Origin: an uncultured Candidatus Saccharibacteria bacterium
GTDB taxonomy: Bacteria > Patescibacteriota > Minisyncoccia > CAIUEV01 > JAHKAQ01
Length of the DNA stretch: 64,000 bases
Assembly (NCBI GenBank): GCA_964598205.1
Contig: CAZRBB010000003.1
Coordinates: forward strand, 115,186-179,185
Reading direction: 5' to 3'
Shown in pieces: positions 14,142 through 32,501 of this stretch. Every line of letters begins with the position of its first letter. Position 1 is the first letter of the stretch. The notes under the pieces are model-generated. The model was not told the origin of the DNA. It saw only the letters and a list, made by a program, of their open reading frames with translations, and searched no databases. Made by a program: the position numbers and the translations under genes.

Positions 14142-15281
14142 TTAGTTGCCGATACACTGGCAATTTAAAAATTTCCACTCTACCGTTTCCCAGCTATAAG
14201 CGCCATTTCTGCTGGGAATAGGAACGGTTCTGGCGTGGACTTCGGCGCTGTGTCCGGAGCAAGGAGTGGGCGTGGTGTTGTAATAAATCACTTTTGCCTC
14301 CCACTTCATTCTGCCTTGGTTCCATTGCAAGGAACCGGAGACATCGCAATTCCCCTTGGTACTATCATTTTTCTGCTGGAAAATAGGGGTTAGCCCATTG
14401 TTGCAGCCGTCCAAGACACTCCAATATTGGGTGTTCCGGATTTCCAGTTCTGCTCCCGGAGTGCCTGGTATCCCCAATTCCCAGAAATATCCAAAAATCG
14501 GGTGCGTTGGACATGGTTCTGGTGCGCCATTGTAAGTCAAGATCAAGCGCAGCCAGCCCCAATGGGAGGTGTAGACCAATGATCCCGAAATGTATTCGTT
14601 GCTTTCGGTGCTTACCGGACATTGAAGCATGGCCGGATAATTTTCGCATCCGGTAATGCATTCAAATTTTTTCCACTCCACTGTCTCCCAGGCAGAAGTG
14701 CCAGGGCGATTTGGGATGCGGATGTTTTGGGAGTGTTTCCCAGCCGGATGAATCTCGCAGGGTGGCGGTGCCCCATTGTAAGAGATAGCTTTCGCTTCCC
14801 ATTTTTGAGTACCCGCATTCCACTGCAAGGAACCGGAAACATCGCAGCCACTTTTCTGGGAATCATTTTGGGCTTCAATAATTACTTGGAGCCCGTTGGT
14901 GTATGTTCCGCAATTGGTACTTTCATCACAGGTGAATCTTTTCCACCGTGTGGTTTCTCCTATTTCCGTCCCTGGTCCAGGAGGAAGATTCTGTAAATAT
15001 ATCCAGGCCTCATGTTCCGGGCAAGGGACTGGCGTTTGATAGTACAGGAGAAGCCCGGCAATCCATTTTTCTCCTGACCACCAAAAGCCTGCGTCCATTT
15101 GGCAACTGTTCCAGCTGCCATCCGTTACTCCTGTATGAACTTCGGGGTAGGTAGCGGTGGTGGAATTTATTGTTTTGGCGGTCGTATTGGCCGCGGCCAT
15201 GTTAGTGTTTAAAAAACTTGCTCCAATCAAAAAAACGATCAGGGCGACTAATACGGTGAAACCGGCTGTTCTTTTTTCCAT
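14142..15281 (-). CDS. Secreted Cys/Trp-rich protein with internal tandem ~60-90 aa repeats; function unknown
   Basis: N-terminal signal/TM segment. Repeats of type CDVSGSLQWN.G..KWEAK.I.YN..P.PC..H......IP.R.G..WETVEWK.F.C, containing (QxW)-like motifs. Coding sequence is ~50% GC versus ~35% for the flanks. Confidence 0.7.
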   Translation of the reverse strand: MEKRTAGFTVLVALIVFLIGASFLNTNMAAANTTAKTINSTTATYPEVHTGVTDGSWNSCQMDAGFWWSGEKWIAGLLLYYQTPVPCPEHEAWIYLQNLPPGPGTEIGETTRWKRFTCDESTNCGTYTNGLQVIIEAQNDSQKSGCDVSGSLQWNAGTQKWEAKAISYNGAPPPCEIHPAGKHSQNIRIPNRPGTSAWETVEWKKFECITGCENYPAMLQCPVSTESNEYISGSLVYTSHWGWLRLILTYNGAPEPCPTHPIFGYFWELGIPGTPGAELEIRNTQYWSVLDGCNNGLTPIFQQKNDSTKGNCDVSGSLQWNQGRMKWEAKVIYYNTTPTPCSGHSAEVHARTVPIPSRNGAYSWETVEWKFLNCQCIGN

Positions 15282-20516: not shown

Positions 20517-21533
20517 TTAATCTAGGGAAATTGTTTTTGGGGCCTTCTTCCAAGGCTTGTTTTTTTGCCAATTTTTAATCCAAGATTCGGGGATTACTAG
20601 GCTTAAAGCGGCTAAATCGGGTAAATGTTCGCCTAAAGCGGTGGGCAGGATCTCTACTTTTTGAGCAAGAGCGGGGAAAGATTCGTCTAAAAATGTCTTT
20701 TTTACAAGGGGTAAGAGGATTTTTTGGTTATTAGCAAAGACACTACCTCCTAAAATAAAGACTTTAGCGTCTAAGATGGCGTTTAGAGCAGAAAGGGCGC
20801 GACCAAAGTATTTAGCGGCTTCTTGCACTACTTTTAGGGCTTTGGGGTCCTTTTTTTGATAAAGCGTAAAGACTTCGGCGGTAGTTTTCCCTTGGCCATA
20901 GTCTCGAGCAATGGCTACCCCAGAACTCAAGGCTTCTAGGTGTCCTGTTTTACTACAGCCACATTGAGGACCGTTTTCTTTCATTAAAAAGTGGCTAAAA
21001 TGAGGAGCATTGCCATCTTTTCCGTCTATTAAGTGGCCATCTACAAAGGCGCCGGCACCAATTCCGGTGCTCCAAGTAGAATAAACTAGGTTATTTTCTC
21101 CTTGATGGGAGCCAAAAAGTCGCTCGGCAGCTACGGCAGCTACGCAATCGTTTTTGATTACTAGAACAGGAAAGGCTTTTTTTAGCTCAGTTTCTAGTGG
21201 AATATAGGTCCAATTGTTGGGAATAATACCCCTCTTTTTAGCTAAGCCACCGCAAAGATTAGGAGCAACTAGCACTCTTTCTTTGCCTTTTTGGGCAAAG
21301 GGACTGCAAGTACTGACTCCTAGGGCCTTAATTTGGGACTTTGAGACGCCGATTTTTTTAGCCAGAAAGGTGATTAATTCAATGGCCTGAGTGGGGATAG
21401 CGTTGTTTTTACCAGTGTTTTTAACCTTTTGGAAGACTTTTCCTAGAATACCGGATTCATTGATTAGGCTGGCGGTTATTTTAGTACCACCAATGTCTAG
21501 GGCAGCAATAAGAGGGTTTTTGGGAGAGTTCAT
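20517..21533 (-). CDS. ROK-family sugar kinase (glucokinase/fructokinase-like)
   Basis: N-terminal ALDIGGTK and the ROK zinc motif CGCSKTGHLEA. Confidence 0.8.
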   Translation of the reverse strand: MNSPKNPLIAALDIGGTKITASLINESGILGKVFQKVKNTGKNNAIPTQAIELITFLAKKIGVSKSQIKALGVSTCSPFAQKGKERVLVAPNLCGGLAKKRGIIPNNWTYIPLETELKKAFPVLVIKNDCVAAVAAERLFGSHQGENNLVYSTWSTGIGAGAFVDGHLIDGKDGNAPHFSHFLMKENGPQCGCSKTGHLEALSSGVAIARDYGQGKTTAEVFTLYQKKDPKALKVVQEAAKYFGRALSALNAILDAKVFILGGSVFANNQKILLPLVKKTFLDESFPALAQKVEILPTALGEHLPDLAALSLVIPESWIKNWQKNKPWKKAPKTISLD

Positions 21534-21759
21534 AGGGGAAAGTTAAGAATTATGATGTTATTATAGCGGAAAGAGGTGGTTAATCAATTGTGGATGGAGA
21601 ATAATGAATAATTGACTAGCAGCAATATTAAAATTCTAAGGAATACATTCTAACGGGCTTAGCTTTTAGGAGTACGCTACGCTTCGCCCAGCGGCTTCGC
21701 TTGCTCGAGTTGGCTTTCTTTGATTTATAATCGATTTTTGGAAAATTGGGTGGAAGGGG

Positions 21760-21788
21760 TTGCCAGAAAGTGTTATTTATGATATAGT
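21760..21788 (+). promoter_or_regulatory. Sigma70-like promoter TTGCCA-N17-TATAGT with extended -10 TG
   Basis: Hexamers at 21760-21765 and 21783-21788 with an exact 17-nt spacer. A near-identical promoter lies at 24330-24358. Confidence 0.6.
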
Positions 21789-21892
21789 ATGATGTTGTAT
21801 TACGGAGAGGCAGATTAAGAAAGAATCGGAAAGAATGAGAGAACTTTAAAAATCTGCCGAATAAAAATCAATTACCTTGAGGGAGGTCAAAC

Positions 21893-22828
21893 ATGTTTGG
21901 AATTGCAAGAGGAAGAAAACGGGAAAGAAGTTTGGCTATTGGGGCGACTGGCAGTAACGGTCGCCAGGTGTCCGGTATTTTTACGGACATCGATAATACA
22001 TTTGTTTATGATGGCTGCAAAGCGGCTACAGTGGCTGTTCTGGGCCTGGCGTGCAAACGCCGGATGCCCGTAGTTGCAGTGACCGGGGCGGATTTAAATT
22101 CGGTTTTTTCACGAATCATGGCAGACGAACTGCCATACTTTAGGGCCCTGGCTACTTCTTGCGGAACGGAGATTTATTTTTTGTCCAAAGGAGGGTATTA
22201 CCAGGATCATCATTGGGATAACCAGCTCCGAAGCAGGTTCAACCGGAAAGAAGTTTTTTTCCGGGCGGAGAATTTGGCAAGGGAATGGGCTGTAACAAGC
22301 CCAGGCTGTGAACTGGAAATTCAGAAGAAGAAGGTTACCGAGAAGTACAAGGTAAGCTTCTATTTTAAAGCCAGCGACGGCTTGGTAGCGTCGATGGCGG
22401 CAGAGGAAATTTTAAGCTACTTTTCTGAGTACCAGTTGGCTTGGTGTGAGGATATTACTTGGGAACCGAAAGACGGTTTGCGGCGGTACTGTGTGGATGT
22501 GTTAGCCGCAAACAAGCAAGACGCGGTAGAATACATTACGGAGCAACTTGGGATCACTGATGGCATTGTAGCTGGAGATTCTGGCAACGATGCCGAAATG
22601 GTTCTGGATTGCGATCGGCGTTTTGTCGGAGTAGTTGTTGGCGGTGCGAGGGAAGAGCTGAAAGAAGCGCTCCGCAAGCGTGATCCGCGGCCAGTCGGCA
22701 AAATCCAGGACAGCAGAGGTTTTTCTCGGTACTACCTTGACGGACGCTTTGTCCTGGTGGACGAACATCCGGACAGGAGAGGGCCGGAGTCAATTTTAGC
22801 AGCTCTGGAGGTGCTTTACAGCGCTTAA
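21893..22828 (+). CDS. HAD-IIB phosphatase, sucrose-phosphate phosphatase-like
   Basis: Motif I TDIDNTF and motif IV AGDSGNDAEM. SD gagggagg. GC-rich coding sequence. Immediately upstream of the SPS-like gene. Confidence 0.75.
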   Translation: MFGIARGRKRERSLAIGATGSNGRQVSGIFTDIDNTFVYDGCKAATVAVLGLACKRRMPVVAVTGADLNSVFSRIMADELPYFRALATSCGTEIYFLSKGGYYQDHHWDNQLRSRFNRKEVFFRAENLAREWAVTSPGCELEIQKKKVTEKYKVSFYFKASDGLVASMAAEEILSYFSEYQLAWCEDITWEPKDGLRRYCVDVLAANKQDAVEYITEQLGITDGIVAGDSGNDAEMVLDCDRRFVGVVVGGAREELKEALRKRDPRPVGKIQDSRGFSRYYLDGRFVLVDEHPDRRGPESILAALEVLYSA

Positions 22829-22897
22829 GGAGTAAAAATCAAAAAAACCAAAAAACAGAAGCAGGCTCTGGGGCGACTTGGGGCCGAGGAGTGGATA

Positions 22898-24268
22898 ATG
22901 GAAGCGACAGCAAAAACAGCGACAGGACGGCAAGAGGCGGGGAAAGCCATTTACGTGGTTAGTACCCATGGTTACTTTGACCTGAGTTCGGAGACCGGCA
23001 GTGTATCGACAGCCGGTCGGCCGGACACCGGTGGGCAGACGGTATATACCGTCGAGCTTGCCAAGGCGTTGGGCCGGCTGGGCTACCTGGTATTTCTCGT
23101 GGTCCGGTGGTTTGACCCGTCCAAAAGAGAGTTGCAAAAGCTGGGCGATAATGCCTGGTTGCTGCGACTTCGGGGCGGACCTTGGGGATTCGTTCCCAAG
23201 GAAAGGATCTACTCGTTACTTCCGGAAATTTCCGACAATCTGGTCTCCTTTATAGAGGATGACTGGAAGGAAATGTTTAGGGAAGCAGGCGATAAGGCAC
23301 CAGAAAATGTAGATCCGGCACTGATCCATGGCCACTACATCGATGGCGGATTAGTAGCCGTTTCCGTGGCCCGCCATTTCCGTTGTCCGGTTTTTTGGAC
23401 CAGTCATTCGCTGGGTGCATTGAAAAGAGAGCGGATGGGTGGTGATCCCGAAAAGATGGAAACGGAGTTCAACTTTCGTCATCGGATAGAACAGGAAGTA
23501 GCGGTGATGAAGAAGGTCGCTAAACATGGCGGACAAACAGTGACCGCCAAAACAGAACCGGGGGACATTGAGCGCCTTTATGGGCTTGAGTTGCCGGATC
23601 TGCAGTTTATTCCGCCGGGGGTGGACACAAAAAAGTTTCATCCACTGCCATGTGGGAAAGAGATTGATCCGATTCCCGGTTGGCCAGCAGTTGGTGGACC
23701 TGTTGTCTTAATGGGTGGCCGGATTGCTAAGACCAAGGGCTATGAGCTAGCGCTCTATGCGTTTCACCGAGTGTTGCGTGAATTTCCAGACGCAAGCTTG
23801 GTGATATTTGGTGGATCGGATAACCCGTCTGGAGAGGAACAAGCTGTTCTCCAGGTAATGGACGATTACCGGGAAAAAAAAGGGATTGCCCGGCGCGTCT
23901 TTTTTCTTGGTGGCTTGACCCATGACCAGCTTCCAAAAGTTTACCGGCGAGCAGACTTGTTTTTGCTGCCGAGCAAGCACGAACCTTTTGGGATGGTACC
24001 GCTGGAGGCAGCAGCTTGCGGAACACCGGTAGTGGTCAGTTGCCATGCCGGGATTGCTTCGGAACTGAAGGACGGCGAGAATTGTTTGATCGTTGATCCC
24101 GAGGATACCCACGAGTTGGCAGAAGCGATGGCGACGCTGTTGCGCTCTTGCGAATGCGCCAAAAAAGTCGCTAAAAACGGTCACTTGACCGTCACCCGGG
24201 ATTATTCTTGGGAAGGCATCGCCAGGAGGCACTTAATTTTTTGGCGCGCCAATGGCGCCGTGATTTGA
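22898..24268 (+). CDS. Sucrose-phosphate synthase-like GT4 glycosyltransferase (GT domain only)
   Basis: GRPDTGGQTVYTVELAKALG, IHGHYIDGG, SHSLGALKRERM, PPGVDTKKF and EPFGMVPLEAAACGTPVV align with the SPS/sucrose-synthase family signatures. Confidence 0.85.
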   Translation: MEATAKTATGRQEAGKAIYVVSTHGYFDLSSETGSVSTAGRPDTGGQTVYTVELAKALGRLGYLVFLVVRWFDPSKRELQKLGDNAWLLRLRGGPWGFVPKERIYSLLPEISDNLVSFIEDDWKEMFREAGDKAPENVDPALIHGHYIDGGLVAVSVARHFRCPVFWTSHSLGALKRERMGGDPEKMETEFNFRHRIEQEVAVMKKVAKHGGQTVTAKTEPGDIERLYGLELPDLQFIPPGVDTKKFHPLPCGKEIDPIPGWPAVGGPVVLMGGRIAKTKGYELALYAFHRVLREFPDASLVIFGGSDNPSGEEQAVLQVMDDYREKKGIARRVFFLGGLTHDQLPKVYRRADLFLLPSKHEPFGMVPLEAAACGTPVVVSCHAGIASELKDGENCLIVDPEDTHELAEAMATLLRSCECAKKVAKNGHLTVTRDYSWEGIARRHLIFWRANGAVI

Positions 24269-24329
24269 ACCTTATAGCAGGGAGGAAGAAGAGAAGCCTA
24301 ATTGCTTTTACTTCTACCTCCCTTTTTTG

Positions 24330-24358
24330 TTACCAATAAAATAAAAGTATGATATAGT
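24330..24358 (+). promoter_or_regulatory. Sigma70-like promoter TTACCA-N17-TATAGT with extended -10 TG
   Basis: Shares the 15-mer tatgatatagtatga with the promoter at 21760-21788. Confidence 0.6.
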
Positions 24359-24429
24359 ATGAAAAATAGATCGGAGCACCTTACCAAAAACAAACAACCC
24401 CCAACATCTGGTTGAGGGAGGTACTTTAC

Positions 24430-25191
24430 ATGGGAACTCTTGTATTCGATATCGACGGAACATTGACTAAGGCAGGAGGGTTCGCGGCCGTTCCATGTGA
24501 ACCTCCAACAGAAGTAAAAACCGCTATCCAAGCACAGCAACGAAAGCATCAGATCGTGCTGTTAACTGGACAACCTTTGCGCGTGGCTACCGGGATGGCT
24601 AGAATGCTGGATCTTCCGCATTGTTTGGTAGCACCAGACTATGGGGCGTTCGTTTGTAGCCCAAGAAATCTGGCAGAAAAGGAGTTTCTGATTAATAGAA
24701 AGGCTTTAGAGGCTTTAATGTTGGTTAAGAATTTTTTAGTGCCGTCGTTTCAAAAATTAGGAGGCAGAATTGACTCCCGCGACGGCATCGGCATTATCAG
24801 TTTTATTTGGGAGTGTCGAGATGGTTGGGCCGATGCTCAGCGGCTCGTGGTCTCTTCTGCCTACGACAAGTTTGTGGCTAATAACGGTTTACGGTTTCAG
24901 TGGAACAGGATTGATTTGTCCATGAATGTAATGCCGGCCGAGCTTTCAAAGGGACTGATTGCTTCCAGGTATTCCGATATTCTGGTGGCAGCCGGAGACA
25001 CCAGCAGCGATCTGCCGGTAATTCAAAAAGCTCTTTTTCCCATAGTTACCCATGACGAGGGAATGTCGATTCATCCTGATCTTGCGGCAGTCGCTGTGGA
25101 TCGGGGATATATCGCTTCCCCAGAAGAACATCATGGATGGGGGTTGATTTCAGGACTCCAAGCTGCACAAGCGGCTGGGATACTGAATTAA
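24430..25191 (+). CDS. HAD-IIB phosphatase (second SPP/Cof-like paralog). The start is placed at ATG 24430.
   Basis: FDIDGTLT and AAGDTSSDLP motifs. SD gagggagg 8 nt upstream. Confidence 0.7.
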   Translation: MGTLVFDIDGTLTKAGGFAAVPCEPPTEVKTAIQAQQRKHQIVLLTGQPLRVATGMARMLDLPHCLVAPDYGAFVCSPRNLAEKEFLINRKALEALMLVKNFLVPSFQKLGGRIDSRDGIGIISFIWECRDGWADAQRLVVSSAYDKFVANNGLRFQWNRIDLSMNVMPAELSKGLIASRYSDILVAAGDTSSDLPVIQKALFPIVTHDEGMSIHPDLAAVAVDRGYIASPEEHHGWGLISGLQAAQAAGILN

Positions 25192-25333
25192 AACTAGGAG
25201 CGGCTTTGCCTTTGGGCAATCGCCGCTTCTTTTAGTTTTGGTGATTTGTTATTATTATGGGGTTCATGCATCTTTGATTAGATGAATTTTGCACTAATTT
25301 GTTGTTTGTAGATTTAAAACATAATTAAAAACT

Positions 25334-26404
25334 ATGAGTCGACACAACTATGGAGTGCGGATCGATGCTAGCGGGACATATCACGGTATGCGTTCTCTTG
25401 TTTTGGAAAACGAAAAATTACGGATTACTGTATTGTTAGATAAGGGAACGGATATTGTTGAGTTTTTGCATAAGCCAACAGATACTGATTTTATGTGGAA
25501 ATCACCACTGGATTGGCATTCGGCCGGTCAATTTTTGCCTACTACTCATAGTTCTATTAGCAGTTTTATGGATTCTTTTGGCGGTGGGTGGCAAGAATGT
25601 TTTCCTAGCGGTGGTCCGCATACTCAATACAAAGGCACAGAGATTGGTTTGCACGGTGAGGTGTGCACTATTCCTTGGGACTGCATTATTACTAAGGATT
25701 CTCCGGAAGTTGTGGAAGCGGTTTGTACTGTTAGAACTTATCGCACCCCTTTTATAATCAAAAAAACATTGAGACTAAAACGGGAAAGTTCAGTGCTAGA
25801 AATGGACGAAGAAATTACCAATGAAGGAAAGGAAGATTTACCTTATATGTGGGGACATCACCCTTCTTTTGGCGAAAATATTTTAGATGATTCTTGCCGA
25901 ATTGATTTACCGGCCGGCAAGGTAGAAACTTACAGTAAAGTTCAAGATAAAATTTCTTCCCAGTTTGCTCCGGAAACTAAGGGTAAGTGGCCGTTTTTAA
26001 AAAACATTAAAGGGGAGCTGATTGACAATTCAAAGGTTCTTCCGGCTAGTAAAAAAACGCACGATCTTTTATTTATCTCTGGATTAAAAGCGGGTTGGTA
26101 CGCCTTGACTAACACCAAGAAAAAATTGGGCATTGGAATGAGTTGGGATGAAAAACTTTTTCCCTATGTGTGGTTTTGGCAAGTTTATGGTGGAGGAAGC
26201 GGTTATCCTTGGTATGGTCGAACTTATAATATTGCGCTTGAACCTTGGACCAGCTGGCCCAACGATGGGGTGGAGGTGGCGGTAAAAAATGGAACAGCCC
26301 CTATTCTAAAAGCGGGGAAAACGATTAAAACTAATTTTTCAGCGGTTGTTTATTGTGGGAAAAAAAAGGTTAGTTTAATCGATAGAAAAGGGAATGTTAA
26401 ATAG
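25334..26404 (+). CDS. Aldose 1-epimerase (mutarotase) superfamily protein, DUF4432-like
   Basis: WGHHPSFGEN resembles the mutarotase HPYFN motif. 356 aa. Confidence 0.55.
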   Translation: MSRHNYGVRIDASGTYHGMRSLVLENEKLRITVLLDKGTDIVEFLHKPTDTDFMWKSPLDWHSAGQFLPTTHSSISSFMDSFGGGWQECFPSGGPHTQYKGTEIGLHGEVCTIPWDCIITKDSPEVVEAVCTVRTYRTPFIIKKTLRLKRESSVLEMDEEITNEGKEDLPYMWGHHPSFGENILDDSCRIDLPAGKVETYSKVQDKISSQFAPETKGKWPFLKNIKGELIDNSKVLPASKKTHDLLFISGLKAGWYALTNTKKKLGIGMSWDEKLFPYVWFWQVYGGGSGYPWYGRTYNIALEPWTSWPNDGVEVAVKNGTAPILKAGKTIKTNFSAVVYCGKKKVSLIDRKGNVK

Positions 26405-26508
26405 ATTCTGCTAGGATTCATCTTTTTTCTTGGTGGGCAAGGTTTTTACGACTTATTCATTTGTATTTTTGTTCCTTAAATTCTGTATGATACAATATCT
26501 GTACCGTT

Positions 26509-26604
26509 CGCTTACCGTAATCTAATTACGCCCCGCCTCGGACGGCGGGTATGCTCACTTACTTCTCCGGCTTTGCCTTGAACTATAACCAAATGTGTAA
26601 GTCC
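26509..26604 (+). repeat. Dispersed TIR repeat family, copy B (5'-truncated; carries the GC-hairpin insert ccgcctcggacggcggg)
   Basis: cgcttaccgtaatctaattacgcc...ggctttgccttgaactataaccaaatgtgtaagtcc. Confidence 0.8.
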
Positions 26605-26634
26605 TAATTTTCATAAAATAATTAAAATAAAATT

Positions 26635-28194
26635 ATGTCCATTCCATCTTCTGGCCTAAAGAATAAAGTACAATTGATTACTTATGCCGACAGTCTTGGT
26701 CGGAATTTAAAGGAACTAAATATTGTTTTAGATAATTATTTTAAAGGGGTTGTTTACGGGGTGCATATTCTACCTTTCTATCCGTCTTCTTCGGATCGCG
26801 GCTTTTCTCCTTTAACGCATTTTAAAGTAGATTCGGCTTTTGGAGATTGGGAAGATGTAGAAAGAATCGCTAAAAAGTACGATCTAATGTGCGATTTTAT
26901 TCCGAATCATGTTTCTGCTAAGTCTGATTGGTTTTGTGATTTTTTAGAAAAAGGAGACAAGTCTCTTTATAAAGATTATTTTATTACGGCGGAGAAATTT
27001 TCTAGGCGAATCAAAAAAAATCGAGAAATTTTTCCAGCACTGACCGATTACCTAGAAAGAATTGCTAATAAATTAAGGCGATTAGATATTGTTTTTCATA
27101 AAGGGGGTGTTAATCGTTTTGTGCTAAAAAAAATTTATCGTCCTCGTCCGGGAACACCGTTTGTGGAGTTTAAGTTAAAAGATGGCACAATAAGAAATAT
27201 TTGGTGTACTTTTTCTGCTGATCAGATTGATCTAGATATCAACAATCCCGAAGTTAAGAATCATTTTAAAAAAACTTTAATTTTTTTGGCTGAAAGGGGA
27301 ATAAGATTAGTGCGCTTGGATGCGGTGGGTTATGCAGCCAAAGAGAGAGGAACTAATAACTTTTTAATTCCCGAAACTTATCAGTTGATTGAAGATCTGA
27401 CTAGAATTGCGCATCAGCGAGGAATAAAAATTCTTCCAGAAGTCCATAATCATTACACTTTCCAAATGCAGTTGGCGCGGGCTAAGGGAGTGGATTATAT
27501 TTACGATTTTGCTTTGCCTCTTTTATTAATGAATGCACTTTTTACCAAAAATGTTAAAAATTTAAAACACTGGATTAAGATTAGACCCAAAAAGGCGATT
27601 ACCACCCTAGACACGCACGACGGCTTGCCAGTGCCAGATGTAGAAGATTTAATGCCAGAAGAAGAACGAAAGATGGTGATTAAAAGAATTCGGGAAAATG
27701 GTGGGAATGATGCATTGCGGGCTTCTGGGGCCAATTCCAACAATGTGGATGTTTATCAGATTAATTGCACTTATTATTCTGCTCTAGGGGAAGATGATAA
27801 TAGTTATATTATTGCGCGGGCGGTGCAATTTTTTGTGCCGGGAATTCCCCAAGTTTATTATGTGGGACTTTTGGCTGGCAAAAATGATGCTCAAAGATTA
27901 AATAAAACCGGTATTGGTCGAGACATTAATCGTCATGCTTATACTATTGCTGAAGTAGCGGAAGAAATGAAACGGCCGGTGGTGGAGCGGTTGTTTTGGT
28001 TGATTCGTTTCCGGAATCGCTATCCAGCATTTAATGGTCGATTTTATACCAAGAAAACGGAAGAATCTGCTTTGGTTATAGGATGGAAAAAGGAAACCTG
28101 TTATTGTGAGCTGAGAGTGGATTTTTTAACCAAGAGAGCAATCGTGGAATATAGGGAGAAGAAGTCGGGTAAGCGTCGTCGCCATGAGCTTTAG
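26635..28194 (+). CDS. GH13_18 sucrose phosphorylase family (sucrose, glucosylglycerol or glucosylglycerate phosphorylase)
   Basis: KNKVQLITYADSLG...GVHILPFYPSSSDRGFSP...IPNHVS, RLDAVGYAAKE, LDTHDG, and YQINCTYYSALG...QFFVPGIPQVYYVGLLAGKND closely follow sucrose phosphorylase signatures. Confidence 0.9.
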   Translation: MSIPSSGLKNKVQLITYADSLGRNLKELNIVLDNYFKGVVYGVHILPFYPSSSDRGFSPLTHFKVDSAFGDWEDVERIAKKYDLMCDFIPNHVSAKSDWFCDFLEKGDKSLYKDYFITAEKFSRRIKKNREIFPALTDYLERIANKLRRLDIVFHKGGVNRFVLKKIYRPRPGTPFVEFKLKDGTIRNIWCTFSADQIDLDINNPEVKNHFKKTLIFLAERGIRLVRLDAVGYAAKERGTNNFLIPETYQLIEDLTRIAHQRGIKILPEVHNHYTFQMQLARAKGVDYIYDFALPLLLMNALFTKNVKNLKHWIKIRPKKAITTLDTHDGLPVPDVEDLMPEEERKMVIKRIRENGGNDALRASGANSNNVDVYQINCTYYSALGEDDNSYIIARAVQFFVPGIPQVYYVGLLAGKNDAQRLNKTGIGRDINRHAYTIAEVAEEMKRPVVERLFWLIRFRNRYPAFNGRFYTKKTEESALVIGWKKETCYCELRVDFLTKRAIVEYREKKSGKRRRHEL

Positions 28195-28223
28195 GAAATA
28201 AATGCCTTATTAATCAAAATAAA

Positions 28224-29054
28224 ATGACCAGAGAAAGGCTAACTATTACACTAAAAAAAGATATCATCGGTTTTTTGGATCGTTTTGTAGATGGGGCACG
28301 GATTAGAAACCGTTCTCATGCCATAGAATATATTTTGGCTAAGCATTTTTTACCGGAATCGGTTAAGGTGTTGATTCTAACAGGGGGAGAGGGGATAAAG
28401 TTGCGACCAATAACTTACGAAATTCCTAAAGCATTGATCCCGATTCATAATCGACCGCTTTTGGAATACACGCTGGAATTTTTAGCTAAGGCGAATTTAA
28501 AAGACTTAATTTTTGCGACTGGTCACTTGGGAGAAAAAATAGAAGCTCACTTTTTAGATGGGACTCGGTTTGGAGTAAAAATAAGTTATTCCAGAGAGAA
28601 AGAAAAAAATTCAGGAACAGTAGTGCCGCTTTTAGAAGCGCGTTCTCAATTGGAAGGTGGGACTTTTTTGGTAGTTTATGGCGATGTTCTAGCTGATATT
28701 GATTACTTGGATCTTTTAGAGTTTCATAAAAAAAATAAGGGATTGGCAACGGTGGCTTTGACTTCGGTAGATCGACCGGCGGAATGGGGAGTAGCAAGTT
28801 TGCAGGGTAATCGGATTACGCAGTTCGAAGAGAAACCAAAAACTAAAGTTTCTTCTCACTTGATTAATGCTGGGGTTTATGTTTTTGATTCGCGGATTTT
28901 TGATTATTTGAGCCCAGACCAGCGAAGTTTGTCTGGGGATGTTTTCCCTCTTTTGGCTCAAAAAGGTGAATTGTTGGGATATTCTTTTTTTGGTCGGTGG
29001 CACGATGTTGGTTCGCCACGGGCCTATACTCAGGCGCTTAAGGAATGGCGGTAA
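28224..29054 (+). CDS. Fusion protein: N-terminal ribbon-helix-helix (CopG/Arc/MetJ-like) domain plus a sugar-1-phosphate nucleotidyltransferase (RmlA/GalU/GlgC-like NTP_transferase)
   Basis: Residues ~4-42 RLTITLKKDIIGFLDRFVDGARIRNRSHAIEYILAKH fit the RHH beta-alphaA-G-x-(S/N)-alphaB pattern. They are followed by LILTGGEGIKLRPITYEIPKALIPI, the G-rich NDP-sugar pyrophosphorylase motif. Confidence 0.7.
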   Translation: MTRERLTITLKKDIIGFLDRFVDGARIRNRSHAIEYILAKHFLPESVKVLILTGGEGIKLRPITYEIPKALIPIHNRPLLEYTLEFLAKANLKDLIFATGHLGEKIEAHFLDGTRFGVKISYSREKEKNSGTVVPLLEARSQLEGGTFLVVYGDVLADIDYLDLLEFHKKNKGLATVALTSVDRPAEWGVASLQGNRITQFEEKPKTKVSSHLINAGVYVFDSRIFDYLSPDQRSLSGDVFPLLAQKGELLGYSFFGRWHDVGSPRAYTQALKEWR

Positions 29055-29413
29055 TTCAATTACGAATAAAGAATAAAGAATTACGAATAAAATTAGAATT
29101 GAGAGTTTTAAATTATTTTGGAATTCAGAATTAACAAGAAGGGATTCTTCGCTTCGCTCAGTATGACAAAAATAATTTGTAATTTAGAATTAAAAATTTA
29201 TTCGAAATTCAAAACTCGAAATTAAGAATTATATGTCTTGGTAAATTTGACAGTACAAAAAAAAGGCTTATGATAAAGCCATAAATTATTCAATGATTTT
29301 AAGACAAACCACAATCTGTTCCGCAGTAAAAAAGGCAGGGTCTACCCCAGCCGGTTTTGGTTTGTTCTTAAGAAGTAACGGATGATCTAAGGAAAAAATC
29401 TAAGAGCAAACCA

Positions 29414-29448
29414 AAATCGGCAATCAAAAAGCCGATTTTTTGTTTTTT
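29414..29448 (+). terminator. Rho-independent terminator at the end of a 360-nt noncoding stretch
   Basis: aaatcggc-aatcaaaaa-gccgattt + TTTTTGTTTTTT. Confidence 0.5.
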
Positions 29449-29570
29449 GAACCTTTTGGTCGGAAGATAAACTTCTCCCAAACGGCTCAAAATGAGTCGG
29501 AAAGAACATTACAAACCAATCAACAAAAAATCCAAATGGGTAAGAACCAATAACCGAGGGAGGTTAAAGC

Positions 29571-31142
29571 ATGGAAGCACAAGCACAAACATTACAGAGT
29601 CAGGGGCAGACTGTTGCCAGCATAGCGACGGTCAAAGAATTACAACTTTTTAATGCACCGGTAGTAAATTGGGTGCGCGGCTGGCCGGCAATTAGTTTTG
29701 AGCCGGAGTTTTCCAAAGAAGGCAACCAGATTGCGGATATTATTCACGCGGGATGTTATGCTAAGCGAGTGCCAGTGGAAGTAGTGAAAGAGCTGGTGAA
29801 GATTGCTTACGCAACTGGCTTAGTTGCTGGTAGTGATGGGCATCGGATCGGTTACGACGGTTCTTGTATTGCACAAATTGCCCCGGAGTGCGCAGGTCGG
29901 AACGGTGACGGAATTTTTCTGGCTGATCTTGACCGGTTACGGAGCCAAAAGCCGGCGAGCGTTCCGGAATTTGTGACGCAGAGCGTAAAGTTTTTTCAGC
30001 GGAACGGAGATTTATTTTCCGGATTCTCCGGTTGCAATGGCGACTTTTCCAAAAAGTTTAAGTATGGAGTTTTCCGGATGGAATCGCTTTATTCCATTCC
30101 GCCGGGATTTAGGGAAATGGGACTTGAGGATTTTTTCCGCTTCGTGGCGATAAATCTTTGGGAGCGAAAAGAATTGTTTGGGGAGAATTTTGTGGAGGTG
30201 CATCGATCTTCTACAATTCCAAAGGACGACGACCCCGAAAGATGTTTATTCGAAACCTTTGGTCACTGGGAACAACTGGAAGGCGTCCTGGACACACAGC
30301 AGTGGGGGAAGGTGCCGCTTTTCTGCCGCATTGCTCCGTCTTACGGTGAGTGCTGTTTGGGGTGGGAACTGGCAATCACGGTGACCGATCCTCGGTCCAA
30401 CCTGTTTACCGTTGGGGTAAATATGGTGTGGGACAGTGTGCGGCATCAGTTTGTGCCGATTATCAACAAGATCCAGACCATGGTGCTTCACCTCGACAAG
30501 TGTCTTCGGTATTGGGGGCAGGAAATGCTTTCTGACGACGAGCTCTTGAGCCGAAAACTGTTCTTGGAGCTTCAGGGGGAAATCAACAAGTTTTTGGGTG
30601 GTGACCTGTTTTACACCATGATCGCCGCGATTGTTTCTTTCTATCGGTTGCGAGAGTATCCAGCAATCAAGGGGATTTGCGGTCGGGATAATCTTTGGCT
30701 GAAGTATCACGCCAAAGAAGTTCTGGCCAAGAAGGGTGTGGCGGCGGCAGAACAGGTACGGAAACGATCGGAGGAGATTTACGACAAGAAATTTGCTCAC
30801 CTGGGATTTGCCCGAACGCACGGTTGCTGGGAATTGCCGCAGGAGAGCTATGCTAAATTTCTTCGGCGAGCACTGGTTCCATATCAACTGGCACAAAACG
30901 AGATCATAAGGGTAGAGGTGGAGCGAGGCGGTCGGATTCAGCCAAAGAACATTAGTCTTCCGACTTATGCGGAAAAAACAACGCCGAATGGGTTGGGAGC
31001 GGTTTTAAAGGTGATGGACAATTGTTTTTGTTCCGTCCCCTTGGAGATTGGTTCCTTTCAGGGGATAGGCGAAGTTCTCCAGGAACGGCGGAACGAGCGT
31101 TCAAGAATCAAAAAAGAGAGGGAGGCCCTGTTGATTGGTTAA
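29571..31142 (+). CDS. Hypothetical protein, 523 aa, GC-rich, with no recognisable motif
   Basis: Long clean ORF with SD gagggagg 6 nt upstream, ~50% GC, and a terminator at 31180-31212. Confidence 0.6.
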   Translation: MEAQAQTLQSQGQTVASIATVKELQLFNAPVVNWVRGWPAISFEPEFSKEGNQIADIIHAGCYAKRVPVEVVKELVKIAYATGLVAGSDGHRIGYDGSCIAQIAPECAGRNGDGIFLADLDRLRSQKPASVPEFVTQSVKFFQRNGDLFSGFSGCNGDFSKKFKYGVFRMESLYSIPPGFREMGLEDFFRFVAINLWERKELFGENFVEVHRSSTIPKDDDPERCLFETFGHWEQLEGVLDTQQWGKVPLFCRIAPSYGECCLGWELAITVTDPRSNLFTVGVNMVWDSVRHQFVPIINKIQTMVLHLDKCLRYWGQEMLSDDELLSRKLFLELQGEINKFLGGDLFYTMIAAIVSFYRLREYPAIKGICGRDNLWLKYHAKEVLAKKGVAAAEQVRKRSEEIYDKKFAHLGFARTHGCWELPQESYAKFLRRALVPYQLAQNEIIRVEVERGGRIQPKNISLPTYAEKTTPNGLGAVLKVMDNCFCSVPLEIGSFQGIGEVLQERRNERSRIKKEREALLIG

Positions 31143-31179
31143 TAAACAAATAACGGCTAGAGAACTAGCCACAACAAGA

Positions 31180-31212
31180 AGGACAAAAGCTTTACGCTTT
31201 TGTCCTTCTTTT
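31180..31212 (+). terminator. Rho-independent terminator
   Basis: aggacaaaagc-tttac-gcttttgtcct + TCTTTT. Confidence 0.65.
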
Positions 31213-32365: not shown

Positions 32366-32501
32366 AAAGTGAATTTACTGGTTTGTTTAAAAAAATGGAA
32401 GAGGGTGTTTTTTTATATTGATCTAGTTATTAAAATAAAAGTTTGAGCTTTGGAAAGAGTTGTTGTATATTAAAGAAGAAATTTAACCATTAACAAAAAA
32501 A

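What the first reader, a model, noticed from the sequence alone, without database searches (positions are those of the whole stretch)
21540..31212. Mosaic sugar island encoding a complete sucrose synthesis/phosphorolysis cycle in a reduced genome
The GC-rich block has an SPP-like HAD (21893), an SPS-like GT4 (22898) and a second HAD-IIB (24430). These make sucrose-6-phosphate then sucrose, or a related glucoside, from NDP-glucose and a phosphorylated acceptor. Downstream, native-GC genes encode a mutarotase-like protein (25334) and a GH13_18 sucrose-phosphorylase homolog (26635) releasing glucose-1-phosphate. An NDP-sugar pyrophosphorylase (28224) converts glucose-1-phosphate back to donor. 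An adjacent ROK kinase (20517, minus) could phosphorylate the freed hexose. A closed sucrose or compatible-solute cycle is unexpected in an organism with otherwise minimal metabolism. The GC contrast says part of it was acquired horizontally. It may serve osmoprotection, carbon storage, or exchange with a host.
Basis: partly seen in the sequence, partly recalled or inferred. Interest (0 to 1): 0.7.

Follow-up and report, generated by a model that had tools for sequence, protein, structure and literature searches.

The report
Sucrose make-and-break gene cluster in Moranbacteria
A tiny-genome groundwater-type bacterium (Candidatus Moranbacteria) carries three imported, GC-rich genes that most likely make sucrose, sitting beside its own sucrose phosphorylase that breaks sucrose down again; this is a new sucrose version, in a new lineage, of a solute-turnover gene layout already known for other sugars.

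Summary
All named genes are at the stated coordinates. Three of them form a sharply GC-rich block: HAD1 21893-22828, GT4 22898-24268 and HAD2 24430-25191 (GC3 0.45-0.55 against 0.33 ± 0.03, z = 4-7).

- **Organism:** Candidatus Moranbacteria (CPR). A close relative sits on a 1.2 Mb contig.
- **GH13_18:** it passes NCBI's sucrose-phosphorylase cut-off. It carries the published sucrose-specific loop A (NVDVYQ) and loop B (YRPRP).
- **GT4:** it fails the SPS equivalog cut-off. It still has the SPS-type acceptor and catalytic signature and groups away from MshA.
not met. HAD2-HAD1-GT4-GH13_18-PfkB(fructokinase-like) recurs on four further independent contig lineages.

- The phosphorylase is native and common in Patescibacteria. 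Only the three-gene synthesis block is foreign.
- ROK, DUF4432 and the NDP-sugar pyrophosphorylase are not conserved cassette members.
- The GC-rich 523-aa ORF belongs with the neighbouring M20 peptidase.
- SPS-like plus S6PP-like pairs occur elsewhere in the phylum.

One puzzle remains. In the relatives the block keeps GC3 of 0.73-0.90, although the flanking host genes are synonymously saturated.

Specificities are inferred, not shown. I rate this a new variant of a known kind, with moderate interest.

The parts
21893..22828 (+). HAD1: S6PP-family sugar-phosphate phosphatase, the predicted sucrose-6F-phosphate phosphatase. Part of the GC-rich imported block.
   Evidence: PF05116 S6PP scores 80 bits against a cut-off of 20.3, but the SPP equivalogs fall far below their cut-offs (TIGR01485, 48 against 184). 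DIDNT and GDSGND motifs are intact. The best solved relative is NtdB 3gyg (51 bits by profile), then Synechocystis SPP 1s2o (28 bits). GC3 is 0.52, z = 6.1. Orthologues at 39-43% identity lie beside the GT4 in all four relative lineages. An SD-like GAGGGAGG lies 7 nt upstream of the ATG.
22898..24268 (+). SPS-type GT4 glycosyltransferase, the predicted sucrose-6F-phosphate synthase (NDP-glucose + fructose-6-P). Part of the GC-rich imported block.
   Evidence: The best NCBIfam matches are MshA (158 bits) and the SPS N-domain (152 bits), both far below their cut-offs. The best PDB match is T. elongatus SPS 6kih, 137 bits. The signature DTGGQ / PKE / T-x-HSLG-x-x-K / R-I-x-x-E / R..K / EPFG..E is identical to bona fide SPS-SPP fusions and differs from the MshA type. 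It maps to TeSPS Gln51, Arg105, His158, Arg178, Arg249, Glu331 and Glu339 (PMC7264703). In the NJ tree the clade has bootstrap 100, clade plus tier 2 has 99, and the non-MshA side has 80. GC3 is 0.55, z = 7.3.
24430..25191 (+). HAD2: a very divergent HAD-IIB-like phosphatase or phosphotransferase of unknown substrate. Third gene of the GC-rich block. The longest ORF starts at a TTG at 24412.
   Evidence: FDIDGT and GDTSSD motifs are conserved in four orthologues. Only sub-threshold HAD-IIB/MPGP hits were found. hhalign to HAD1 covers 208 columns, E = 1.2e-4. In the relatives it lies upstream of HAD1; here it lies downstream of GT4. GC3 is 0.45, z = 4.1.
26635..28194 (+). GH13_18 sucrose phosphorylase (sucrose + Pi -> alpha-glucose-1-P + fructose). 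Native GC. It belongs to a Patescibacteria clade with an insertion of about 30 aa before loop B.
   Evidence: TIGR03852 scores 532 bits against a cut-off of 334. PDB matches are 7qqj (454 bits) and BaSP 1r7a (402 bits). Loop A NVDVYQ equals the SP fingerprint N(L/V)D(I/L/V)YQ (PMC7178133). Loop B IYRPRPG, the RLDA nucleophile and the PEVH acid/base are all kept in orthologues. Of the 120 best homologues, 84 carry the insertion. Identity tracks DnaK identity. GC3 is 0.32.
28224..29054 (+). NDP-sugar pyrophosphorylase with a 47-aa N-terminal extension that looks like a ribbon-helix-helix. It is a possible supplier of NDP-glucose from glucose-1-P. An accessory gene, not part of the conserved cassette.
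   Evidence: PF00483 scores 151 bits. The best PDB match is UDP-glucose pyrophosphorylase 8x7s (130 bits), but GDP-mannose pyrophosphorylases score 122-125 bits. It starts 29 bp after the GH13_18 stop. An orthologue at 49% identity, including the extension, lies 4 kb upstream of GH13_18 in L015. It is absent from the four cassette relatives.
20517..21533 (-). ROK-family sugar kinase, divergently transcribed from HAD1. A possible hexose kinase for the cycle. Accessory and not conserved.
   Evidence: PF00480 scores 137 bits. The best PDB match is glucokinase 3vov (107 bits); fructokinase 1xc3 scores only 45 bits. The zinc motif C-x-C-S-x-x-G-H-x-E is visible in the sequence. No ROK lies next to the cassette in any relative. 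No PfkB or hexokinase-like gene lies in the window.
25334..26404 (+). DUF4432, a galactose-mutarotase-like protein inserted between HAD2 and GH13_18 only in this lineage. Role unknown.
   Evidence: PF14486 scores 87 bits. There is a weak hit to aldose 1-epimerase 3nre, E = 0.011. JGI names it 'galactose mutarotase-like enzyme'. It is absent from all relatives' cassettes. GC3 is native at 0.35.
21534..21892 (.). Divergent intergenic region between ROK (-) and HAD1 (+), and the left edge of the GC-rich block.
   Evidence: GC is 0.37 here and rises to 0.49 at 21901. A promoter-like TTGCCA-17-TG-TATAGT lies at 21760-21788, but promoter-like sites in the region are no more frequent than in shuffles. 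No flanking repeats or mobile-element ends were found.

Best explanation
The locus is a sucrose turnover system in a Candidatus Moranbacteria (Patescibacteria/CPR) genome. It has two layers.

**Layer 1, native.** A GH13_18 sucrose phosphorylase is widespread in Patescibacteria. [quoted passage not shown]

**Layer 2, imported.** A three-gene block from a high-GC source sits beside it.
- An SPS-type GT4 joins NDP-glucose to fructose-6-phosphate, giving sucrose-6F-phosphate.
- An S6PP-family HAD phosphatase (HAD1) releases sucrose.
- A second, very divergent HAD (HAD2) always travels with them. Its role is unknown.

In relatives the canonical order is HAD2-HAD1-GT4-phosphorylase-fructokinase(-hexokinase-like). 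Fructose would be re-phosphorylated to the acceptor there.

In this genome HAD2 has moved and a DUF4432 gene has been inserted. The kinases are missing. A neighbouring ROK kinase and an NDP-sugar pyrophosphorylase may play the recycling roles.

The cell would build sucrose as a compatible solute or small carbon reserve when hexose phosphates are plentiful. It would recover it by phosphorolysis when they are not.

**Shown from sequence:** family membership, active-site fingerprints, gene linkage across lineages, foreign composition and host taxonomy.

**Inferred:** donor and acceptor of the GT4, substrate of both HADs, in-vivo direction and regulation, and physiological role.
For: - **Phosphorylase.** It scores above the NCBIfam sucrose-phosphorylase cut-off (532 against 334). 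Loop A NVDVYQ matches the published SP fingerprint. It does not match the SPP, GGaP or GGoP fingerprints. Loop B YRPRP and the catalytic residues are invariant in the orthologues aligned. Most of the 120 closest homologues keep the loop A fingerprint.
- **GT4.** It is identical to true SPS-SPP fusion proteins at all acceptor-site and catalytic positions examined, and unlike MshA-type proteins. These positions map onto TeSPS residues that contact sucrose-6-P and UDP. The tree places it on the SPS side.
- **HAD1.** It is in Pfam S6PP with intact catalytic motifs.
- **Linkage.** The same four genes lie together on four other independent contig lineages. They run on one strand with short gaps and are followed by a PfkB whose best match is fructokinase.
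- **Nearest relative.** L015 has a different but also SPS-type GT4 between the phosphorylase and PfkB.
- **Known analogues.** Synthase/phosphatase genes next to a GH13_18 phosphorylase are established for glucosylglycerol (ggpPS-ggp). They are also listed for glucosylglycerate in Synechococcus 7002 (PMC10873239).
- **Host and transfer.** DnaK places the host in Moranbacteria. GC3 z-scores of 4-7 mark the block as foreign.
Against: - No enzyme has been assayed.
- The GT4 scores far below the SPS equivalog cut-off (152 against 576). It scores as well against MshA (158). It forms its own clade with no characterised member.
- JGI labels it mannosylfructose-phosphate synthase. I could not compare it with a characterised MfpsA.
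- HAD1 is closer to NtdB (kanosamine-6-P phosphatase) than to cyanobacterial SPP.
- A second HAD has no place in the textbook pathway.
- Co-transcribing synthesis and phosphorolysis would be a futile cycle unless regulated. No regulator was identified.
- The phosphorylase has an insertion of about 30 aa next to the mobile loop B. Its effect is unknown.
- In this window no fructokinase-like gene is present. ROK resembles glucokinases.
- The pyrophosphorylase is as close to GDP-mannose enzymes as to UDP-glucose enzymes.
- Many Patescibacteria have the phosphorylase without any synthesis block. So it also has a role independent of endogenous sucrose.
Confidence: 0.58

Rival explanations
1. The imported block makes a different fructose-6-P-derived or other phospho-sugar glycoside, for example mannosylfructose (MfpsA/MfppA-like, from GDP-mannose). 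The sucrose phosphorylase next to it is functionally unrelated and serves to catabolise sucrose taken from outside or from a host.
For: JGI's orthology label for the GT4 and its tier-2 relatives is mannosylfructose-phosphate synthase. The adjacent NTP-transferase scores almost as well against GDP-mannose pyrophosphorylases (122-125 bits) as against UDP-glucose pyrophosphorylase (130 bits). The GT4 is below the SPS cut-off. HAD1 is not close to true SPP. The phosphorylase occurs alone in many Patescibacteria.
Against: The block sits directly upstream of the phosphorylase and a fructokinase-like PfkB, on the same strand with short gaps, in four other lineages. Subsite -1 of GH13_18 enzymes is strictly specific for glucose (PMC7178133). 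A mannoside product would therefore have no catabolic partner here. The NTP-transferase is not part of the conserved cassette.
Confidence: 0.17
2. The GT4 and HADs have nothing to do with soluble sugars. They glycosylate a cell-envelope or other acceptor. Their position next to the phosphorylase reflects an insertion hot-spot, not function.
For: GT4 is a very broad family with many envelope enzymes. The window has other GT4 genes. HAD2 has no recognisable specificity. The block behaves as mobile DNA, with foreign GC in every lineage.
Against: The GT4 keeps the basic residues that hold the acceptor phosphate, and the fructose-contacting Gln, of SPS. Its partner is an S6PP-family phosphatase, the usual second step for phospho-sugar glycosides. 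No membrane or lipid-carrier genes accompany it. The same neighbourhood recurs in five lineages. The nearest relative L015 has a different SPS-type GT4 in the same position.
Confidence: 0.1
3. The phosphorylase is not sucrose-specific. The clade-specific insertion of about 30 aa beside loop B reshapes subsite +1. The enzyme would then act on another alpha-glucoside, possibly the true product of the GT4/HAD block.
For: The insertion lies directly before the mobile loop B. It defines a large, uncharacterised, mainly Patescibacteria clade (84 of the 120 best hits). GH13_18 has repeatedly yielded new specificities among proteins annotated as sucrose phosphorylase (PMC7178133, PMC10873239).
Against: Every published specificity determinant is in the sucrose state: loop A N-V-D-V-Y-Q, loop B Y-R-P-R-P and His after the acid/base. 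A fructokinase-like PfkB follows the gene in relatives, which fits fructose as the product.
Confidence: 0.1

Closest known systems
Compatible-solute synthase/phosphatase genes adjacent to a GH13_18 phosphorylase: Marinobacter ggpPS-ggp (glucosylglycerol), and Synechococcus PCC 7002 GpgS (A2021), GGaP (A2022) and GpgP (A2023) for glucosylglycerate (PMC10873239)
   Same: A glycoside-phosphate synthase and its phosphatase are encoded directly next to, and on the same strand as, a GH13_18 phosphorylase. The proposed logic is the same: make the solute, then recover it by phosphorolysis to glucose-1-P.
   Different: The solute here is predicted to be sucrose. The synthase is a GT4 of the SPS type, not the glucosylglycerol-phosphate or glucosyl-3-phosphoglycerate synthases of those systems. 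There are two separate HADs. A fructokinase-like gene is attached in relatives. The host is a CPR bacterium. The synthesis half is compositionally foreign while the phosphorylase is native.
Sucrose pathway of halotolerant methanotrophs: Sps, Spp, FruK and amylosucrase (Ams) in Methylotuvimicrobium alcaliphilum (enzymes listed in PMC8062543). That these form one sps-spp-fruK-ams cluster is from my own recollection.
   Same: The enzyme logic for sucrose matches: SPS, SPP, a sucrose-cleaving GH13 enzyme and a PfkB fructokinase.
   Different: The cleaving enzyme there is amylosucrase (a different GH13 subfamily, making glucan), not a phosphorylase. The GT4 here is a separate subfamily. There is an extra HAD2. 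The GC mosaic is absent there as far as I know.
Bifidobacterium adolescentis sucrose phosphorylase (BaSP, PDB 1r7a/2gdv) and the GH13_18 specificity fingerprints (PMC7178133)
   Same: Loop A N-(L/V)-D-(I/L/V)-Y-Q, loop B Y-R-P-R-P, the catalytic Asp/Glu/Asp and His234 equivalents are all present. It scores 402 bits to 1r7a.
   Different: It has an insertion of about 30 aa in domain B just before loop B. The insertion is conserved in a large, mostly Patescibacteria clade. No member of that clade has been characterised, as far as the searched literature shows.
Cyanobacterial and Halothermothrix sucrose-phosphate synthases (TeSPS 6kih, HoSPS 2r60) with SPP (1s2o)
   Same: GT-B GT4 fold. The residues contacting fructose-6-P and UDP-glucose are conserved. 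It is paired with an S6PP-family HAD.
   Different: It scores only 137 bits to 6kih. It lies below NCBI's SPS cut-off and in a separate clade. HAD1 is closer to NtdB than to SPP.

Membership tests
GH13_18 sucrose phosphorylase (EC 2.4.1.7) | Whole-protein score above the curated equivalog cut-off (NCBIfam TIGR03852) | tested here: met
   532 bits against a cut-off of 334.
GH13_18 sucrose phosphorylase (EC 2.4.1.7) | Loop A fingerprint N(L/V)D(I/L/V)YQ, and absence of GFDVHQ or KxxYYQ (SPP), VGAIYQ (GGoP), and Glu plus (T/S)ETN (GGaP) | tested here: met
   Loop A is NVDVYQ and the acid/base region is LPEVHNH. The same holds in L003, L005, L015, L016, L034 and L035.
GH13_18 sucrose phosphorylase (EC 2.4.1.7) | Loop B with the phosphate-binding Arg (BaSP Y132-R-P134-R135-P) and the catalytic nucleophile and acid/base | tested here: met
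   IYRPRPG, RLDA and PEVH are invariant in the orthologue alignment A1.
GH13_18 sucrose phosphorylase (EC 2.4.1.7) | Phosphorolysis of sucrose to alpha-glucose-1-P and fructose | not testable with these tools
   This needs an enzyme assay. The effect of the clade-specific insertion of about 30 aa is unknown.
Sucrose-phosphate synthase (GT4, EC 2.4.1.14) | Score above the curated SPS glycosyltransferase-domain cut-off (TIGR02472) | tested here: not met
   152 bits against a cut-off of 576. MshA (TIGR03449) scores 158 bits against 462.5.
Sucrose-phosphate synthase (GT4, EC 2.4.1.14) | Residues that bind fructose-6-P or sucrose-6-P and the donor (TeSPS Gln51, Arg105, His158, Arg178, Arg249, Glu331, Glu339) | tested here: met
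   The window has Q47, K101 (Arg to Lys, as in all SPS-type sequences of A6), H170, R196, R275, E362 and E370. The pattern is identical to SPS-SPP fusions P0046 and P0057 and differs from the MshA type.
Sucrose-phosphate synthase (GT4, EC 2.4.1.14) | Phylogenetic placement with characterised SPS | tested here: inconclusive
   In the NJ tree the clade lies on the SPS-type side of the MshA split (bootstrap 80). It is a separate lineage with no characterised member. Characterised MfpsA was not available for comparison.
Sucrose-phosphate phosphatase (S6PP family, EC 3.1.3.24) | Pfam PF05116 above the gathering score, with HAD motifs I-IV | tested here: met
   80 bits against 20.3. DIDNT, a Thr in 'AVTG', and GDSGND are conserved.
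Sucrose-phosphate phosphatase (S6PP family, EC 3.1.3.24) | Equivalog-level match to plant or cyanobacterial SPP | tested here: not met
   TIGR01485 scores 48 bits against 184. A profile search hits NtdB 3gyg (51 bits) ahead of SPP 1s2o (28 bits, C-terminal part only).
Mannosylfructose-phosphate synthase/phosphatase (MfpsA/MfppA) | Closer to characterised MfpsA than to SPS; GDP-mannose as donor | not tested
   Only JGI's automatic label points here. No MfpsA sequence or structure was reachable. The literature search gave nothing usable, and the plasmid tblastn gave at most 30% identity to unnamed glycosyltransferases.
Synthase-phosphatase-GH13_18 phosphorylase solute cassette (ggpPS-ggp type) | Synthase/phosphatase genes directly adjacent to the GH13_18 phosphorylase on the same strand, conserved across genomes | tested here: met
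   In L003, L005, L034 and L035 the gap from GT4 to GH13_18 is 108-166 bp on the same strand. In the window they share a strand but are separated by HAD2 and DUF4432.
HAD-IIB (for HAD2) | Score above the TIGR01484 cut-off; catalytic DxDxT and GDxxxD | tested here: inconclusive
   24 bits against 41.8. The motifs are present and conserved. hhalign to HAD1 gives E = 1.2e-4 over 208 columns. The AlphaFold single-sequence model was unusable (pLDDT 34).

The most novel reading that the evidence does not exclude
The HAD2-HAD1-GT4 block is a self-contained, recurrently transferred 'sucrose-synthesis module'. It either repeatedly docks, or is repeatedly replaced, at the same site upstream of the native sucrose phosphorylase in different Moranbacteria lineages, or it is actively held GC-rich.

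Either way it would give ultrasmall, metabolically minimal CPR cells their own disaccharide reserve or osmolyte, with an energy-saving recovery route. It could also be a sugar currency exchanged with a host.

The evidence that keeps this open:
- In four lineages the block retains GC3 of 0.73-0.90.
- It also retains more shared synonymous signal than the flanking GH13_18 and PfkB genes, which are saturated.
- Yet its proteins are more diverged than theirs.
Probability: 0.25. Interest if true: 0.65.

Novelty: new variant of a known kind. Interest (0 to 1): 0.5.

Why it matters
CPR/Patescibacteria are thought to have very little biosynthetic capacity and to depend on hosts.

- **A tested pathway to add to their metabolic picture.** A conserved, horizontally acquired module for making a disaccharide, wired to a native phosphorolytic recovery enzyme, would show that some of them manage their own compatible solute or carbon reserve. 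It would also be a concrete case of gene import expanding the metabolism of streamlined cells.
- **New enzymes.** The locus points to two uncharacterised subfamilies. One is an SPS-like GT4 clade. The other is a large insertion-bearing sucrose-phosphorylase clade. Sucrose phosphorylases are used industrially for glycoside synthesis, so both could be useful biocatalysts.
- **Evolution.** The persistent GC-rich signature beside saturated host genes is a tractable case for studying amelioration versus repeated transfer.

If the specificities turn out otherwise, the locus is still a tidy example of a solute synthase/phosphorylase cassette, but of less interest.

Tried and rejected
- **AlphaFold on HAD2.** The single-sequence model was useless (pLDDT 33.7), so no fold search was run on it.
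- **Scan of species-representative genomes with the GT4 clade alignment.** It found only one close relative, which was the already known L003 contig.
- **Metagenome scan with the same alignment.** It found no close relative and did not even recover the window's own contig, so it could not serve as a co-occurrence census.
- **tblastn of the GT4 against plasmids**, to reach annotated MfpsA or SPS. It gave at most 30% identity to unnamed glycosyltransferases.
- **Literature searches.** Searches for mannosylfructose, for 7QQJ/7QQI and for sucrose metabolism in Patescibacteria or Moranbacteria returned nothing usable. 'Not previously reported' therefore holds only within that library.
- **Looking for island boundaries.** No direct or inverted repeats, tRNA or integrase-like genes were found. 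Promoter-like and terminator-like sites are no more frequent than in shuffled sequence, apart from one strong hairpin at 31176-31210.
- **The 523-aa GC-rich ORF as part of the sugar system: rejected.** It shares no similarity with the relatives' hexokinase-like protein. It has its own long upstream gap. Its homologue in L020 is again next to an M20 peptidase. Its model resembles GNAT acyltransferases only weakly.
- **The GH13_18 as a sucrose-6F-P, glucosylglycerol or glucosylglycerate phosphorylase: rejected** on the loop fingerprints.
- **The GT4 as MshA: rejected** on the signature table and tree.
- **PHROGs scan** of the orphan, HAD2 and the other GC-rich ORF gave no hits.
- **First NJ script** timed out and was rerun with a faster distance routine.

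Full report
**1. What is in the sequence**

The interval holds, on the + strand:
- an S6PP-family HAD (HAD1, 21893-22828);
- a GT4 glycosyltransferase (22898-24268);
- a second, very divergent HAD (HAD2; ATG at 24430, longest ORF from a TTG at 24412, ending at 25191);
- a DUF4432 / mutarotase-like protein (25334-26404);
- a GH13_18 protein (26635-28194);
- an NTP_transferase (28224-29054);
- an unannotated 523-aa ORF (29571-31142).

A ROK kinase (20517-21533) lies upstream on the opposite strand.

The composition claim is correct and strong. Forty ordinary ORFs of the window have GC3 of 0.329 ± 0.031 (maximum 0.38). HAD1, GT4 and HAD2 have 0.52, 0.55 and 0.45 (z = 6.1, 7.3, 4.1). The step falls on the gene boundaries. 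The phosphorylase, DUF4432 and the transferase are native in composition.

The locus is found on identical contigs in JGI and Logan assemblies, and its proteins are also on record in NCBI. It is therefore not an assembly chimera.

**2. Whose genome**

The window's DnaK is 77-83% identical to proteins that are all labelled Candidatus Moranbacteria, Moraniibacteriota or Patescibacteria wherever a name exists.
- One hit (81%) lies on a 1,201,846-bp contig. That contig also carries the closest GH13_18 relative (73%, L015).
- Another hit (73%) lies on the contig of L016, whose GH13_18 is 62% identical.
- GH13_18 identity therefore follows DnaK identity.

So 'reduced genome' is justified, and the phosphorylase looks vertically inherited.

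**3. The phosphorylase**

- It passes NCBI's curated sucrose-phosphorylase cut-off (532 against 334 bits).
- It scores 400-450 bits to solved GH13_18 enzymes.
- The review of this subfamily gives loop A as the specificity fingerprint. N(L/V)D(I/L/V)YQ indicates sucrose phosphorylase. GFDVHQ or KxxYYQ indicates sucrose-6F-P phosphorylase. VGAIYQ indicates glucosylglycerol phosphorylase. A Glu in loop A plus (T/S)ETN indicates glucosylglycerate phosphorylase (PMC7178133).
- The window has NVDVYQ. It also has loop B IYRPRPG (BaSP Tyr132/Pro134/Arg135), the RLDA nucleophile and PEVH (acid/base plus the His234 equivalent). All are kept in the orthologues.
- It differs from characterised enzymes by an insertion of about 30 aa just before loop B.
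- The insertion is present in 84 of the 120 best homologues. Most of those keep the sucrose fingerprint, and where named they are Patescibacteria.
- Many of these genomes have the phosphorylase alone, or with a PfkB nearby.

**4. The glycosyltransferase**

By whole-protein scores it is ambiguous. MshA scores 158 bits and the SPS N-domain 152 bits, both far below their cut-offs. The best structure is T. elongatus SPS 6kih (137 bits), followed by MshA 3c48 (117 bits).

At residue level it is not ambiguous.
- In a 44-sequence alignment, the window's clade, its next relatives and bona fide 716-aa SPS-SPP fusion proteins all share DTGGQ, (P)KE, T-x-HSLG-x-x-K, R-I-x-x-E, R...K and EPFG...E.
- Proteins of the MshA type instead have DAGGMN, MFHT(L/V) and ESFG.
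- These positions correspond to the TeSPS residues reported to contact the fructose moiety (Gln51), the sugar phosphate (Arg105, Arg178), the glucose (His158, Glu331) and UDP (Arg249, Glu339) (PMC7264703; mapping from the alignment).
- A neighbour-joining tree puts the window's clade (bootstrap 100) with a second tier (99) on the SPS side of the MshA split (80). It remains a lineage without any characterised member.

The clade is rare. There are about eleven 90%-identity clusters in 5.8 billion proteins and one species-representative genome.

JGI's label for it is mannosylfructose-phosphate synthase. That enzyme also uses fructose-6-P. I could not obtain a characterised sequence to test this.

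**5. The two HADs**

HAD1:
- It is a clear Pfam S6PP member with intact motifs.
- It is closer to NtdB, a kanosamine-6-P phosphatase, than to Synechocystis SPP.

HAD2:
- It keeps the catalytic Asp pair and GDxxxD in four orthologues.
- It aligns with HAD1 over 208 profile columns (E = 1.2e-4).
- It matches no family above threshold.
- It could not be modelled.
- Its role is open.

**6.

Four further independent contig lineages carry the same genes in the order HAD2-HAD1-GT4-GH13_18-PfkB. They are L003 (= L004/L008), L005/L006, L034 and L035. All genes are on one strand with short gaps. L035 begins at HAD1, so HAD2 is not seen on it.
- Two of them add a 447-451-aa protein of the hexokinase fold.
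- The PfkB's best model is fructokinase (180-184 bits against 111-141 for ribokinase).
- Identities to the window are GH13_18 65-66%, GT4 55-62%, HAD1 39-43% and HAD2 28-34%.
- L003's cassette lies just downstream of a 23S rRNA gene split by a group I intron and LAGLIDADG ORFs. From my own knowledge this is typical of CPR. The record's 'Gammaproteobacteria' label is therefore doubtful.
- The window's nearest relative, L015, lacks the block. It has instead another GT4 between the phosphorylase and PfkB. That GT4 is only 30% identical to the window's but also carries the SPS-type signature. L015 also has an orthologue of the window's NTP-transferase 4 kb upstream.

The window's arrangement is the derived one:
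- HAD2 has moved behind GT4.
- DUF4432 has been inserted.
- PfkB and the hexokinase-like gene are absent from the whole 64 kb.

ROK, the only kinase nearby, is closest to glucokinases. The transferase is equally close to UDP-glucose and GDP-mannose pyrophosphorylases. The 'closed cycle' is thus plausible, but its closing enzymes differ between lineages and are unproven here.

**7. History of the block**

The mosaic is shared and even sharper in the relatives. Block GC3 is 0.73-0.90, against 0.36-0.50 for GH13_18 and 0.27-0.48 for PfkB.

I looked at four-fold degenerate sites of conserved residues among the four relatives, with expectations computed per amino acid.
- The host genes are saturated: observed minus expected, rescaled, is 0.04 for GH13_18 and 0.045 for PfkB.
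- The block keeps more signal: 0.17 for GT4, 0.13 for HAD1 and 0.09 for HAD2.
- Yet its proteins are more diverged than the host proteins.

A single ancient import followed by passive amelioration should have erased the GC signal. Three options remain:
- later spread or replacement of the block at the same site;
- something holding GC high;
- unusually fast protein evolution after transfer.

I could not separate these. No donor was found. The next GT4 relatives (38-44% identity) are always paired with a PRK-family kinase and have no HAD.

**8. Most likely mechanism**

- NDP-glucose plus fructose-6-P gives sucrose-6F-P (GT4).
- Sucrose-6F-P gives sucrose (HAD1).
- Sucrose plus Pi gives glucose-1-P and fructose (GH13_18).
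- Fructose is re-phosphorylated by PfkB in relatives, and perhaps by ROK here.
- Glucose-1-P may be re-activated by the adjacent pyrophosphorylase.

Run simultaneously this is a futile cycle. The two halves must be separated by regulation or by metabolite levels, and I found no regulator. A compatible-solute or small-reserve role is the natural reading. That reading is an inference.

**9. Comparison with what is known**

The layout 'synthase/phosphatase next to a GH13_18 phosphorylase' is established for glucosylglycerol in Marinobacter. There ggpPS lies 17-76 bp upstream of ggp. The same paper lists a GpgS, GGaP and GpgP set with consecutive locus tags for glucosylglycerate in Synechococcus 7002 (PMC10873239).

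Methanotrophs have Sps, Spp, FruK and amylosucrase for sucrose (PMC8062543).

What is new here:
- the sucrose-plus-phosphorylase combination;
- the uncharacterised GT4 and phosphorylase subclades;
- the extra HAD;
- the CPR host;
- the persistent foreign composition.

SPS-type GT4s with S6PP-type HADs and a second GT4 also occur at native GC on other Patescibacteria-type contigs. Sucrose-type synthesis is therefore probably not unique to this island within the phylum. I found no paper on sucrose metabolism in these bacteria in the searchable library.

**10. Verdict**

Its core holds, and its details are corrected above.
- I class it as a new variant of a known kind, with moderate interest.

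Noticed in passing
[not shown]
   Followed up: partly
window 28224-28370 (N-terminus of the NTP_transferase); L015 5878-6711: The NDP-sugar pyrophosphorylase has a 47-aa N-terminal extension (MTRERLTITLKKDIIGFLDRFVDGARIRNRSHAIEYILAKH). It looks like a ribbon-helix-helix DNA-binding module. It has no Pfam hit. It is conserved in the L015 orthologue (aligned from residue 1, 49% identity). This may be a sugar-nucleotide enzyme fused to a regulator.
   Followed up: partly
L007 2529-4428; L021 5342-7245; L023 5325-7236; also L011, L013, L014: The next-closest relatives of the GT4 (38-44% identity, in Bacteroidales and high-GC contigs) are each directly preceded by a PF00485 PRK-family P-loop kinase of about 220 aa. 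In the Elusimicrobiota loci, which are more distant, a kinase homologue follows the GT4 instead. None has a HAD or GH13 neighbour. This looks like an uncharacterised kinase plus SPS-like GT4 pair.
   Followed up: partly
L010 7945-11442; L026 7923-11449; L029 5200-8771: Other low-GC contigs, one of them from a MAG named Patescibacteria (L010), carry an SPS-type GT4, an S6PP-family HAD and a second GT4 together at native GC. This recalls the SPS and glucosylsucrose synthase of T. elongatus (PMC9909042); whether those two genes are neighbours I did not check.
   Followed up: partly
L003 523-7040: A 23S rRNA gene is stretched to about 6.1 kb by insertions that include a group I intron and three LAGLIDADG ORFs. 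A 5S rRNA follows, directly upstream of the sugar cassette. The public record is labelled 'uncultured Gammaproteobacteria', which looks wrong.
   Followed up: partly
window 14142-15281 (-): This is another strongly GC-rich ORF (GC3 0.52, z = 6.1). It encodes 379 aa with an N-terminal hydrophobic segment and has no Pfam or PHROGs hit. It may be a second foreign gene in the window.
   Followed up: partly
window 26623-26638, 28208-28224, 24337-24352, 32431-32446: An A/T-rich motif, TAAAATAAAA(G/T)(T)ATG, recurs immediately upstream of several start codons, including those of GH13_18 and the NTP-transferase (families D8/D9). The imported HAD1 instead has a classical GAGGGAGG Shine-Dalgarno sequence.
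   Followed up: no
window 29078-29210 and 29350-29421: The 516-bp gap before the 523-aa ORF holds two inverted repeats (42-nt arms at 76% and 21-nt arms at 90% complementarity). It also holds the best promoter-like match of the region (29247-29274, 11 of 12).
   Followed up: no
L003 14043-15386; L005 8637-9992: The last cassette gene in two relatives is a very divergent protein of the hexokinase fold (PF00349 and PF03727 at about the gathering score, no NCBIfam hit). This fold is mostly associated with eukaryotic hexokinases, so it is unusual in bacteria.
   Followed up: no
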